NCBI RefSeq assembly: GCF_006345805.1
Contig: NC_042998.1
Location: 207,864,903 to 207,928,902 of the forward strand
DNA: 64,000 nt
Direction: 5' to 3'
Source: Octopus sinensis
Taxonomy: Eukaryota
Under the pieces are notes generated by a model. The model saw nothing but the letters and a program-made list of their open reading frames with translations. It had not been told where the DNA came from and made no database searches. Made by a program: the position numbers and the translations under genes. Shown piece by piece: positions 14,006 to 62,901 of this stretch (its first letter is position 1; each line of letters starts with the position of its first letter).

Positions 14006-14065
14006 TGCAATTTCCGGGTTATTTCCCTTCATCAGCACAGAACAATTATCTTGCCGAACAATTAT

Positions 14066-14110
14066 TCTGTGCTGATGAAGGGAAATAACCCGGAAATCGC
14101 GATACACAGA
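14066..14110 (+). ncRNA. Minimal type I hammerhead-like motif (family H1)
   Basis: TCTGTG-CTGATGA-A-GGG-AAATAA-CCC-G-GAAAT-CGCG-ATA-CACAGA: 6-bp stem I, palindromic stem III, predicted cleavage after AUA at 14104. Confidence 0.72.
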
Positions 14111-15911: not shown

Positions 15912-16603
15912 TATATACGACAGGCTTCTTTCAGTTTCCGTCTACCAAATCCACTCACAAGGTTTTGCTCGTCTCGAACCCGGAACTGAACCCGGAACCA
16001 TATGGTTGGGAAGCAAGCTACTTACTACACAACCACTTCTACACATAGATATATCCCTATACATCCCATCGTACCCCACCCCAGCCTTGCTTCCCCCACT
16101 TTCCCTCCCCCCACACTCACACACCACCACACAACACACCACCACACAACACACCACCATAGCATACCATACCACACCACACCAAATCACACCACCCCGC
16201 ACACATTTGCACTAACCACTTCCCAGCACCTACACCATCATCCACACACCTACACATGCACACACGCATACGTTAATGTCACCAGCTCCCTTCCACACGC
16301 ACATATACGCTCTCACATACACACGCATGCGCACCTTTATTTTGGGATCACCACAACTTTATTATCTCCCCTTCTTCCTAGATTTCCTGTATGACCCCCT
16401 CTGTCCATCATTCGCCATGATAGATCGCTAGCCACTAAACCTTTTTCTATTTTCTCTCCCTGTTTATTTCTGTGTTCCTTTTTGTCGAAGGGCGCAGACT
16501 CGAAACTTAAAGAGACTTTCTCACTTCCCGAGCATTAAACTAATACATCTGTTTGTTATTTACACACCCGTCGTCGTCTTTTGTTTCTTTCGTAAATTCT
16601 CAC

Positions 16604-16772
<169 letters not shown>

Positions 16773-41365: not shown

Positions 41366-41659
41366 TTTCAGTAAAAACAATTAAGATTCAAGTGAGTTCC
41401 AATGAATTCACTTGAATGCGGTACTTAACTTAGATGCACCAGAAATCTATATGGTATTAACCATAAAATAATGTGGGGTGATTATAAACAAGAAAAACGC
41501 AACAAGAATGGTGTACAAAACAAACAGATATATTAGTATAACGCTCAGGAATAGAGAAAGTCTTTTACGTTTCGAGCCTACGCTCGTCGACAGAAAGATA
41601 CACAGAAAAAAACACGGAGAGAAACAAGGAGAGAAAAAAATGTGTGTAGTAGCTAACGA

Positions 41660-41696
<37 letters not shown>

Positions 41697-42222
41697 CGGG
41701 AAGCTTTATGAAAATAGACAAAAGACGAAGGCAGGTTTACGGAAATAAACAAAAGACGAAGGCAGGTGGAATACAAACAAACAATTGTATTAGTATGGCG
41801 CTCAGGAAATATAAATAAAACAAGTCTTTAATGTTTCGAGCCTACGCTCTTCAACAGAAAGATACACAGAGAAAAAACACAGAAAGAAGGAGAGAAAAAA
41901 ATATATGCGTGCAGAGGCTAGCGAATCAACATGGCGTTCTGATTTCGGCCAGAAGTCAAAGATCAAACATGAGACGCAAGAGCGAAATTAGGGGAGATAA
42001 TAGGGTTGAATGACCTCGCTCCAACATAAGAGTGTGTGTGTGTGTATGAGAAGAGTGTGTGTGTGTGTGTATGAGAGAGTATTAGTGCGTATGAGAGGTC
42101 TGGACGTGTGTATGTATATATGATGTGATGTGTAAAGTCGTATGGTGTAGTGTAGAGAGAGGAGATGAGGGAAGAGGGGGTGGTAATGGGGGGAGAGGGG
42201 AGGGGTGTGTGTGTGTGTATGC

Positions 42223-53038: not shown

Positions 53039-53968
53039 TACTCTTACTCTTTACTCTTTTACTTGTTTCAGTCATTTGACTGCGGCCATGCTGGAGCACC
53101 CGGCGACTTATTCTTTTGTAAGCCCAGTACTTATTCTATCGGTCTCTTTTGCCGAACCGCTGCGTAATGGGGACATAAACACACCAGTATCAGTTGTCAA
53201 GCAATGCTAGGGGGACAAACACAGACACACAAACATACACGCATACACATACAGTATATATATATACATATATACGACGGGCTTCTTTCAGTTTCCGTCT
53301 ACCAAATCCACTCACAAGGCATTGGTCGGCCCGGGGCTATAGCAGAAGACACTTGCCCAAAGTGCCACGCAGTAGGACTGAACCCGGAGCCATGAGGCTG
53401 GTTAGCAAGCTACTTACCACACAGCCACTCCTGCGCCTGTTCAATTTTCTAGAAATAGACAGAGGTGTTTATTGTACTGGCTAATGTGATAGTGGAGGCT
53501 GAAGATTCAGAGAGAAAGAAAGAAGTGTATATTGATATGTGCACGCGCGCATACATGTAGATATACGTGTGTATATGCACTATTACGTAGGCTCGCATAC
53601 TTATGTACTTAACCCATACGCATGTACATACACACACACACATATATACTTATATGCACACACACACACACACCACACACACATAATATATATATATATA
53701 TATATATAATATATTATATATATATATAGGGTGTGGGAGTTCACGAAAAAAAGACGAAGATAGGTGGTGTACAAAACAACGGATGTATTAGTATAACGCT
53801 CAGGAATTGAAAAGGTCTTTTACGTTTCGAGCCTACGCTCTTTTACAGAAAGGGACACAGAAAAAAACAAGGAGAGAAACAAGGAGAGAAAAAATGAGTG
53901 TAGTGGCTACCGATAAAGGCGTTCAGAATGCTGGATGGTTGTAAAAAAAAATATATTTATTTACGTAT

Positions 53969-55401: not shown

Positions 55402-56602
55402 CATCATTGGTTACTTCTTTGTTGATGTCATTTTTTTCACAATTTGCAGCTGGGTGGTTTGTGTAAATGTCGAGATTAATAGCACAAGACTAACCCACCC
55501 CTCATACATACATGCATTAATACATACATACTAACAGACATACATACATTACTACATGCATGCATACATACAATACATACATACATACATACATGCATAC
55601 ATACATACATACATACATACATACATACTACATACATGCATGCATGCATGCATACATACATACATACATGCATACATACATACATACATACATACATACA
55701 TACATACATACATACATACATACAGCCACTAAACCTTTTCTATTTTCTCTCCTTGTTTATTTCTCTGTTCTTTTCTGTCGAAGAGCGTAGGCTCGAAACA
55801 TAAAAGACTTTCTCACTTCCCGAGCGTTAACCTAATACATCTGTTTGTTGTTTACTCACCCGTCTTGATCTTTTGTTTTTTTGTAAATTCACACTTCATA
55901 TATATATACATACATACATACACACACATACACACACACACACATATATATGCATGTGTTTATGTTTGCGTGTATATATGTGTAATTATATACGCATATG
56001 TGCGTAGTAAAAATTATTGCAGTAAAAGAGAAGCAAGGGATAGTTTCATATGTATGTGTTTGTGTGCGGGTATGCGTATGTGGGTGTGTATATGTATATA
56101 CATATGTGCACACTTTCAAACGCTTCATCTTTCTTTTATCTTTTTCTTGTTCCAGTAAATGGACTACTGCCATGCTGGGGCACCGACTTGAAGGATCTCG
56201 TTAACCGGATCGATTTATTTTCACACTTTTTTATGCTTGGTACTTATTCTATCAACCATTTTGTCGAACCGCTAGATAATGGAAACGTAAACAAACGAAT
56301 ACTGGCTGTTAAGGGGAAAATACATATACAAAGACACACACACACATACACACATTCGACGTGCTTCTTTCAGTTTCCGTCTAGGATATCCACAAACAGA
56401 TCTTTGCTTGTACGGGAGCTATAGTAAAGAACCCAAGGTGACATCAAGCGGGCCTGAACCCTGAACCATGTGGTTGGCAAGCAAACGTCTTACCACAGCC
56501 ATGCCTACTCCTACACGTTTAATCCATAAGCATGATGAATTCGACAAAATATATTTTGTTTCACCCTTAATTGTCCGACCGGGTTTCTATGAACATGTCA
56601 CG

Positions 56603-57196: not shown

Positions 57197-57404
57197 TATA
57201 TATATATAGGGAAGATTTACGAAAAAAAACAAAAGACGAAGACAGATGGTGTACAAAACAAACAGATGTATTAGTATAGCGCTCAGAAATAGAAAAAGTC
57301 TTTTACGTTTCGAGCCTACGCTCTTCTACAGAAGGGACACAGAAAAAAAGGAGAGAAAATATGTGTGTAGTGGCTAACGATCTATCATGGCGTCATATAT
57401 ATAT

Positions 57405-59033: not shown

Positions 59034-59683
59034 TATGCATACATAGGCATATATATTTATGCATGCATGCATACATACACACATACATACATACATGCAT
59101 ACATAAATATTTTTCTCTCCTTGTTTCTTTCTGTGTTCCTTTCTGTGGAAGAGAGTAGGCTCGAAACGTTAAAGACTTTTCACTTCCCGAGCGTTAAACT
59201 AATACATCTGTTTATTGTCTACACCATCTGTCGTCGTCTTTCGTGTTTTTTTAAGTGAATTCTCCGCATACATAAATATGACTGCACTAAAGAAAAAAAG
59301 AGTCACTCAATTGATTTAGTAAGAGTTACATATCTTATTATATTAAACAGTTTGGTTCGATCCCATGCGACATAGTTTTGTGGACTTCTTACTGAAATAT
59401 ATCTTGTAGGGGTCAGTTAACCGAACCTAGATTTGCCCGAAGACCCAAGTTTCTCTCAGAAGTATTCGAAACTGTAAATCGCTTGGAGCCGAACGAAAAT
59501 GTTTTAGATAATATATGTACGTATATAGTGGCTGTGTGGTAAGTAGCTTGCTTACCAACCACATGGTTCCGGGTTCAGTTCCACTGCGTTGCACCTTGAG
59601 CAAGTGTCTACTATAGCCACGGGCCGACCAAAGCCTTGTGAGTGGATTTGGTAGACGGAAACTGAAAGAAACTTGCCGAATGT

Positions 59684-62656: not shown

Positions 62657-62732
<76 letters not shown>

Positions 62733-62901
62733 GGGAGAGTTCACAAAAAAATCAAAAGACGAAGACAGGTGGTGTAGAAAACAAACAAATCTATTAGTAT
62801 AACGCTCAGGAATAGAAAAAGTCTTTTACCTTTCGAACCTACGCTCTTCTACAGAGAAACAAGGAGAGAAGAAATCTGATTATGTTCTGCAGAGGGGATC
62901 A

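What the first reader, a model, noticed from the sequence alone, without database searches (positions are those of the whole stretch)
41490..41937. Family D: abundant 180-bp element with an A6-to-U hammerhead core variant, here as a tandem pair
Seen: about 10 copies in 64 kb. The best reads UCUUU-CUGUCGA-C-GAGC-GUAG-GCUC-GAAAC-GUA-AAAGA on the minus strand near 41560-41600. All intact copies have CUGU rather than CUGA, while N7 varies (C/U/A/G) as expected for a hammerhead. There is no tRNA head, TIR or ORF, and the 3' end usually runs into (TA)n. Two copies lie head-to-tail, which could allow dimeric folding or circularisation. Inference: a fixed change at a normally invariant core base means either a new ribozyme variant or a fold reused as an RT-recognition signal.
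Basis: partly seen in the sequence, partly recalled or inferred. Interest (0 to 1): 0.75.

Follow-up and report, generated by a model that had tools for sequence, protein, structure and literature searches.

The report
Penelope hammerhead with fixed A6U core
This repeat is the tail of a Penelope-type jumping gene with tens of thousands of copies, whose self-cutting RNA motif has one normally fixed core letter changed in the whole lineage while the rest of the motif stayed unchanged through many generations of the element, so it is likely a slowed-down but still used ribozyme; cutting is untested.

Summary
The motif is real and is a hammerhead. The 180-bp repeat is the 5'-truncated end repeat (pLTR) of an autonomous Penelope-like retroelement (RT plus C-terminal GIY-YIG), not an ORF-less element. 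Full-length young copies carry the U6 hammerhead at both ends, about 4.4 kb apart. Genome-wide, one exact pattern has U6 18,560 times against A6 348 times; 76 of 76 complete cores in a flank-anchored sample have U6. Across nine subfamily consensuses (12% to 2% diverged), 30 constrained hammerhead positions never change, N7 changes five times, H17 three times (A/U only), and flanks 137 times in 151 columns. A sister family keeps A6 and shows a swapped stem I pair, but its younger branch fixed U4C. I read this as selection for an attenuated, probably protein-assisted, dimeric ribozyme; a dead fold kept as a binding signal is the main rival. The window's tandem pair is two different subfamilies joined at (TA)n, one with a broken stem III, so it is unlikely to be a working dimer. 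A6U was not found in the papers searched. This scan noted the same variant before, in this genome and in others.

The parts
41509..41664 (-). Lower copy of the pair: 5'- and 3'-truncated pLTR of an intermediate-age subfamily
   Evidence: Family copies align to query positions 1-157; 95% to subfamily consensus TA2, 94% to TA1
41562..41597 (-). Minimal type I hammerhead of the lower copy: stem I 41597-41594 with 41565-41562, C3 41593, U6 41590, N7 41589, stem II 4 bp, palindromic stem III half-site, H17 41566
   Evidence: Sequence; architecture as in PMC4209133 min-HHR
41662..41695 (.). (TA)n spacer, the element's target sequence, between the two copies
   Evidence: TA follows the 3' end in 79 of 92 copies
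41696..41944 (-). Upper copy of the pair: pLTR of the youngest subfamily, with a ~33-nt duplication of its 3' end (about 41767-41737 and 41736-41697)
   Evidence: nhmmer hits 41944-41735 and 41736-41686; 96% to youngest consensus
41826..41861 (-). Minimal hammerhead of the upper copy: C3 41857, U6 41854, H17 41830; G16.2 at 41832 mutated to A (stem III palindrome broken)
41945..42127 (-). Low-complexity 3' UTR of the parent Penelope-like element, continuing the upper copy upstream
   Evidence: Aligns to the 3' UTR of full-length copy L064
12856..13041 (+). Further copy, old C7 subfamily, U6
16410..16614 (+). Further copy, old C7 subfamily, U6, decayed core; 3' UTR-like sequence continues upstream
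53721..53914 (-). Further copy, A7 subfamily, U6
55724..55906 (+). Further copy, old C7 subfamily, U6
57197..57397 (-). Further copy, A7 subfamily, U6
59110..59276 (+). Further copy, G7 subfamily, U6
62721..62870 (-). Further copy, A7 subfamily, U6

Best explanation
The repeat is the end repeat (pLTR) of an autonomous Penelope-like retroelement, and its hammerhead carries a lineage-wide A6U core change that likely makes it a slow, still-used ribozyme. Shown: parent element, copy numbers, fixation of U6, invariance of the other constrained positions across subfamilies, ragged 5' ends, fixed 3' end at an internal TA tract, and concerted evolution of the two end repeats of each element. Inferred: the GIY-YIG domain nicks (TA)n; reverse transcription starts at the TA tract about 107 nt downstream of the predicted cut site and usually aborts early, leaving the ~180-bp stubs; two hammerheads (the two ends of one transcript) would pair through the palindromic stem III and, probably with help from the element's protein, cut and rejoin at H17 to give a unit-length circle or an equivalent longer-than-unit template; U6 would slow this step and is predicted to lock the monomer in a closed hairpin, so that cutting does not destroy the template or mRNA too early.
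For: Parent: L064 reads pLTR-ORF-pLTR with U6 at both ends 4.36 kb apart; 10 of 20 long copies have the motif at both ends and 29 of 29 cores in them have U6; L345 has a 963-codon open frame with RT and GIY-YIG. Fixation: T 18,560, A 348, C/G 593; 76 of 76 complete cores in a flank-anchored sample; 87 of 100 listed in the oldest subfamily, A6 copies scattered in its tree. Selection: 0 changes in 30 constrained columns against 27 expected from the flank rate; all 8 changes inside the 36-nt motif fall on N7 and H17, the two free positions of the hammerhead core. G16.2, needed for the dimer palindrome but not for a monomer hairpin, is kept in all nine consensuses although it is a CpG site mutated in 8 of 78 dead copies. 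Stem I outer pair is C-G here and G-C (35 of 48) or G-U (10 of 48) in the A6 sister family. That sister's younger branch fixed U4C (25 of 47), another U-turn change reported as slow but viable (PMC3088659). Natural A6C keeps low activity (PMC3088659, PMC7151607). A PLE hammerhead is protein-assisted (PMC11167929). The two end repeats of one element differ by 1.6% against 7.2% between elements, and 5' repeats vary continuously from 13 to over 1,100 nt.
Against: No cleavage data exist here. Mutational scanning of a monomeric hammerhead found low activity for all CUGA-turn mutants but the C3/G8 swap (PMC9901934), and A6C cost more than 10,000-fold in Mg2+ versus Mn2+ in one ribozyme. Hammerhead-dead mutants of an anole Poseidon element still insert in vitro. 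No pile-up of 5' ends at the predicted cut site: 1 at +28 and 1 at +30 of 92 rows, 0 of 20 long copies; the A6 sister shows none either, so this test does not discriminate. Loop II and the inserted A are also invariant although the minimal consensus does not demand it, which points to an added binding constraint. Predicted active dimers lie 8-24 kcal/mol above the minimum-energy fold (no tertiary energy, similar for A6). Subfamilies were grouped by hand from a tree and mostly from core-containing searches. Tandem transcripts or template jumps explain the concerted end repeats without cleavage.
Confidence: 0.55

Rival explanations
1. The U6 hammerhead is catalytically dead; the hairpin it forms is kept as a binding or folding signal for the element's RT/endonuclease (or as part of the pLTR promoter).
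For: U6 raises the predicted G5-C15.2 pairing that closes the core from 0.01-0.10 (A6) to 0.44-0.98 in 7 of 7 consensuses. Loop II is invariant too. Cleavage is dispensable in vitro for a Poseidon element; Naiads spread without canonical hammerheads (PMC8557442). CUGA-turn mutants have low activity. The sister family also lost a core base.
Against: A binding signal gives no reason why exactly N7 and H17 should be the only variable sites, nor why C3, U16.1 and G16.2, unpaired or improvable in the closed hairpin, stay fixed.
Confidence: 0.3
2. U6 is nearly neutral: in the dimeric, protein-bound form position 6 is tolerant and the ribozyme works about as well as A6 relatives.
For: The U6 lineage outnumbers A6 relatives under one matched pattern, 18,774 to 4,735. 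PLE minimal hammerheads are slow anyway (PMC4209133). Unchecked notes of this scan report A6U in PLEs of other genomes.
Against: All rows of the published metazoan min-HHR alignment that I saw have A6; changes at position 6 lower activity in every test I read.
Confidence: 0.1
3. The motif is a functionless relic that hitch-hiked with a successful element; its constancy is an artefact of how copies were collected.
For: Most copies behind the consensuses came from searches containing the core. Dead copies decay in the motif at 3.2% against 5.3% in flanks, a modest gap.
Against: The flank-anchored sample, blind to the core, gives the same cores and the same subfamily-linked N7 states; no other invariant run exceeds 17 columns against 22 inside the motif.
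Confidence: 0.05

Closest known systems
Minimal type I hammerheads of metazoan Penelope-like elements (Cervera and De la Pena 2014, PMC4209133; Lunse et al. 2017, not held, seen only as a citation)
   Same: pLTR location, 4-bp stem I, extra base after A9, G10.1-C11.1, loop-less palindromic stem III requiring a dimer, mostly solitary truncated copies
   Different: U instead of A at position 6 in the whole lineage; the core variants I saw in that paper are U3-A8 covariation only
Neptune/Nematis-type endonuclease-positive PLEs (as described in Craig et al. 2021, PMC8557442)
   Same: Single RT plus C-terminal GIY-YIG frame, CX2-5CxxC linker, partial tandem pLTRs, 5' truncation, (TA)n targeting
   Different: Non-canonical hammerhead core; clade assignment between Neptune and Nematis not tested by a tree
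Natural hammerhead core variants A6C (phage Bcep176) and U4C (viroid) (PMC3088659, PMC7151607)
   Same: Change in the CUGA uridine turn with catalytic G8/G12 kept; low but detectable activity reported
   Different: Those are single examples in monomeric ribozymes; here A6U is fixed in about 40,000 copies over nine subfamilies, and U4C in a sister branch
Poseidon element of Anolis (Frangieh et al. 2024, PMC11167929)
   Same: Internal start of reverse transcription downstream of the hammerhead, AT-rich targets, no footprint of cleaved ends
   Different: Different PLE clade; start site here has TA microhomology to the target; canonical core there
Animal non-LTR retrozymes (bioRxiv 10.64898/2026.07.22.740005; PMC7229834 seen only in listing)
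   Same: Short repeats with type I hammerheads related to PLE pLTRs
   Different: Copies here are ragged truncations of an autonomous element, not tandem units of fixed length

Membership tests
Endonuclease-positive Penelope-like element | One reading frame with RT followed by GIY-YIG endonuclease | tested here: met
   L345 963-codon frame: RVT_1 above Pfam cut-off (E 1.6e-7); GIY-YIG E 0.003, below the curated cut-off, motif seen directly (also 29)
Endonuclease-positive Penelope-like element | Direct pseudo-LTRs of variable length flanking the ORF | tested here: met
   L064 and 10 of 20 long copies have the repeat at both ends; 5' repeat 13 to over 1,100 nt
Endonuclease-positive Penelope-like element | Fixed 3' end, heavy 5' truncation, microsatellite targeting | tested here: met
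   92 flank-anchored copies: ragged 5' ends, 79 end in TA repeats
Neptune/Nematis-type PLE | CX2-5CxxC zinc-finger linker before the GIY-YIG motif | tested here: met
   C-x4-C-x2-C upstream of the endonuclease in L064, L067, L345; feature from PMC8557442
Neptune/Nematis-type PLE | RT phylogeny placing it in Neptune rather than Nematis | not tested
   No named reference sequences at hand; homologues found were unnamed or uncharacterised
PLE minimal hammerhead | Type I topology with stem I and stem II, G10.1-C11.1, one extra base after A9 | tested here: met
   All nine consensuses; stem II probability about 1.0, stem I 0.7-0.9; stem I pair swap in sister family
PLE minimal hammerhead | Palindromic, loop-less stem III (dimer only) and NUH cut site with H not G | tested here: met
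   ACGU palindrome invariant; H17 only A or U in consensuses, 0 G in 78 cores
PLE minimal hammerhead | Canonical core CUGANGA with A6 | tested here: not met
   U6 in 18,560 of 19,501 pattern matches and 76 of 76 complete flank-anchored cores
PLE minimal hammerhead | Self-cleavage at H17 | not testable with these tools
   No raw RNA reads available; genomic end footprint uninformative
Non-LTR retrozyme | Non-autonomous tandem units of fixed length, each with a hammerhead | tested here: not met
   Window pair is two subfamilies joined by TA; family is autonomous and lengths are ragged
SINE, DNA transposon or LTR element end | Fixed 5' head, or transposase/integrase parent | tested here: not met
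   No fixed 5' end; the adjoining coding sequence is PLE RT/GIY-YIG in old and young subfamilies. A dedicated inverted-repeat search was not run.

The most novel reading that the evidence does not exclude
Penelope-like elements are repeatedly selected to detune their hammerhead at the uridine turn (A6U in this lineage, U4C in the sister branch) while keeping every catalytic and pairing position: a natural class of slow, protein- or metal-gated hammerheads whose cut-and-rejoin step makes a circular template and whose attenuation favours spread.
Probability: 0.3. Interest if true: 0.8.

Novelty: new variant of a known kind. Interest (0 to 1): 0.56.

Why it matters
What hammerheads do in Penelope-like elements is an open question: they are nearly universal, slow in vitro, and dispensable in the one reconstituted system. 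This lineage is a natural experiment. It changed a core base long ago, went through at least nine successive subfamilies and still kept the exact hammerhead constraint pattern, which argues that the motif matters in vivo. It supplies matched natural variants (A6, U6, C4) and a near-intact protein for a direct test, would widen the accepted hammerhead core, and shows that CUGANGA-based searches miss the most abundant motif of this design in this genome.

Tried and rejected
Rfam: no hit at gathering score in the window; at E up to 10 neither the U6 pair nor a canonical A6 sister copy hit a hammerhead model, so Rfam is uninformative. Sequencing runs: no RNA holder listed; only contigs could be laid, so ends, strand and expression were not testable. 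One search showed the repeat in four runs under four organism codes with N7 variable in all four and no row for position 6, but 22 of 62 rows were not shown; one search returned no variant table. Cut-site footprint in 5' ends: no pile-up in U6 copies or in the A6 sister (4 of 52 without core); two of the 92 rows were aligned to a neighbouring copy. Idea that A6 copies form an ancestral A6 subfamily: rejected for the oldest subfamily (5 of 100 listed, scattered in the tree); one basal A6 copy (L093) and seven G7 copies with A6 remain unexplained. A distal helix seen by eye between the flanks was not recovered by alignment folding. No PLE coding sequence of its own was found next to 60 sister-family loci. 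Literature: A6U or a CUGU core in a PLE hammerhead was not found in searches; Lunse et al. 2017 was not held, and supplement file 1 of PMC4209133 could not be searched, so either may bear on novelty.

Full report
Observation. The quoted motif is present on the minus strand at 41598-41561. BLAST and a profile search find nine copies in the window; all nine have U at hammerhead position 6, and N7 takes all four bases. The window is the last 64 kb of contig C2 of a 2.72-Gb animal genome and is richer in the repeat than average: 4 exact matches against 0.44 expected, while 36 spaced 10-kb stretches held 2 against 2.5 expected.

What the repeat is. Thirty close copies share a fixed 3' end followed by TA repeats and have ragged 5' ends. 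Longer copies run upstream through a low-complexity region into GIY-YIG and RT coding sequence. L064 reads end repeat, 5' UTR, ORF, 3' UTR, end repeat, with the U6 motif at both ends 4.36 kb apart. Of 20 copies chosen by the start of the ORF (most for long open frames), 19 carry the motif, 10 at both ends, and 29 of 29 cores have U6; L345 has an uninterrupted 963-codon frame with RVT_1 above Pfam's cut-off and GIY-YIG below it. A C-x4-C-x2-C linker precedes the endonuclease, the mark of Neptune and Nematis PLEs (PMC8557442, passages). So the 180-bp element is the truncated pLTR of an autonomous Penelope-like element. A capture-recapture estimate from the first 16 Mb of C1 gives roughly 40,000 copies (42 of 92).

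The tandem pair. The upper copy is 96% identical to the youngest subfamily and continues into the 3' UTR to at least 42127; the lower is 95% identical to an older subfamily. They meet at about 17 TA units, the element's target. I infer a later insertion into the TA tract in front of an older copy. The upper copy has G16.2 changed to A, which breaks the stem III palindrome, and the forced dimer fold is 20 kcal/mol above the minimum-energy fold. This pair is unlikely to be functional; the interest lies in the family.

Fixation of U6. One exact pattern matches 18,560 times with T at position 6, 348 with A and 593 with C or G; reversed controls give 0. A looser matched pattern gives 18,774 for U6 and 4,735 for A6, the latter mostly a sister family with a 3-nt loop II. 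In 92 copies collected by a downstream flank motif, blind to the core, 78 reach the core and 76 of 76 complete cores have U6; the two exceptions are cut inside the core. In the oldest subfamily 87 of 100 listed matches have T, 8 C and 5 A, and the A copies do not group in a tree. U6 therefore predates the oldest recognisable subfamily. A6 is taken as ancestral because the sister families and the published consensus have it.

Selection. A tree of 209 copies was divided by hand into nine U6 subfamilies with median non-CpG divergence from 12% to 2% (151 copies used). Along that series 30 constrained columns (stem I, core including U6, inserted A, stem II, GAAA, stem III) changed 0 times against 27 expected from the flank rate; loop II changed 0 times; N7 changed 5 times and H17 3 times, only between A and U; 151 flank columns changed 137 times (Fisher p 2e-8 on variable columns). 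N7 and H17 are the free positions of the hammerhead core (established knowledge; PMC7151607, parts 1-2 of 4). If loop II and the inserted base are also counted as free, the chance that both variable sites are free ones is about 0.03 rather than 0.002. Caveats: the ladder order is assumed from divergence and most copies came from core-containing searches; the flank-anchored sample reproduces the same subfamily-linked N7 states. The sister family has the outer stem I pair swapped, G-C in 35 and G-U in 10 of 48, which supports the stem.

A second core change. In the flank-anchored sample of the sister family 25 of 47 distinct copies have C at position 4, tied to a flank marker (23 of 25 against 2 of 22, p 5e-9) and younger (2.9% against 5.7%). 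U4 and A6 both belong to the CUGA uridine turn. U4C and A6C are reported as natural variants with reduced but detectable function (PMC3088659, passages and section 8; PMC7151607), whereas a scan of a monomeric hammerhead found low activity for all mutants of this turn but the C3/G8 swap (PMC9901934, passages). Two related lineages thus changed the turn and kept the catalytic guanosines.

How it likely works. The 3' end of every insertion matches an internal site of the 5' UTR where the element itself has a short TA tract, about 107 nt after H17; I infer that the nicked (TA)n target primes there, in line with internal initiation in a Poseidon element (PMC11167929, parts 1-2 of 4). Most cDNAs abort within 250 nt. 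Full-length insertions pass the hammerhead twice, their 5' repeats vary from 13 to over 1,100 nt, and the two ends of one element evolve together: 1.6% within against 7.2% between for 10 elements (L347 left out for its 13-nt repeat), 1.3% against 2.5% among the 8 youngest, with 44 shared differences at both ends of L064. This needs a template longer than one unit. A circle made by cutting and rejoining at the two hammerheads, as proposed in PMC4209133 (parts 1-2 of 4 and supplement file 2, part 2 of 3), fits; tandem transcripts or template jumps fit too. U6 is predicted to close the monomer by pairing U4-G5-U6 with the stem III half-site (probability 0.44-0.98 against 0.01-0.10 for A6). I commit to an attenuated, probably protein-assisted ribozyme (0.55). 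The main rival is a dead fold kept as a binding signal (0.30): cleavage was dispensable in vitro for the anole element, loop II is invariant, and there is no pile-up of 5' ends at the cut site (1 at +28 and 1 at +30 of 92 rows), though the A6 sister shows none either.

Comparison and novelty. It works like, and sits in the place of, the minimal hammerheads of metazoan PLEs, but fails their A6 criterion. The metazoan alignment rows I saw in PMC4209133 all have A6. Seven full-text searches found no A6U core in a PLE; Lunse et al. 2017 was not held and is known to me only from a review's passages (PMC6765202). Of the retrozyme preprint I read part 1 of 5. Earlier unchecked notes of this scan describe the same variant in this genome and in PLEs of three other windows from other genomes; I reached my reading before opening them and could not test the other genomes. 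Verdict: new variant of a known kind, interest 0.56.

Noticed in passing
L361-L410 (G000:C1, sister family with 3-nt loop II; at least 6,378 copies by flank pattern): The younger branch of the A6 sister family has fixed U4C (CCGA core): 25 of 47 copies, linked to a flank marker. No coding sequence of its own was found next to 60 loci, and many copies begin near the same point, so it may be non-autonomous.
   Followed up: partly
window 12749 (+), 14072 (+), 14035 (-), 52377 (-), 63387 (+): Five further minimal hammerhead-like motifs with canonical CUGAUGA cores from other repeat families; the two near 14035-14072 face away from each other in an inverted arrangement.
   Followed up: no
window 41767-41697; L070 about 1100-1240; L257: A ~33-nt duplication of the extreme 3' end recurs in several copies; it may reflect two adjacent start sites of reverse transcription, like the PLE 'tail'.
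   Followed up: no
L083, L089, L091, L092, L094, L097, L105: A6 copies seem over-represented in the G7 subfamily (about a quarter of the listed A6 matches against about a tenth of U6 matches); a small reverted branch cannot be excluded, but no other diagnostic site was found.
   Followed up: partly
flank-anchored copies L251-L340: The G closing stem I is mutated, mostly to T, in 9 of 78 copies across five subfamilies, high for a non-CpG site; probably a mutational hot spot after an A run.
   Followed up: no
window as a whole: The window is the terminal 64 kb of contig C2 and holds about nine times the genome-average density of the motif (4 against 0.44 expected).
   Followed up: partly
L357 about 5900; L370; L408; L352: U6-family and sister-family copies often sit directly next to each other across a TA tract, showing shared (TA)n targeting and explaining chance tandems.
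   Followed up: partly
L077 minus strand, upstream of the PLE fragment: A 655-codon open frame with a long array of C2H2 zinc fingers.
   Followed up: no
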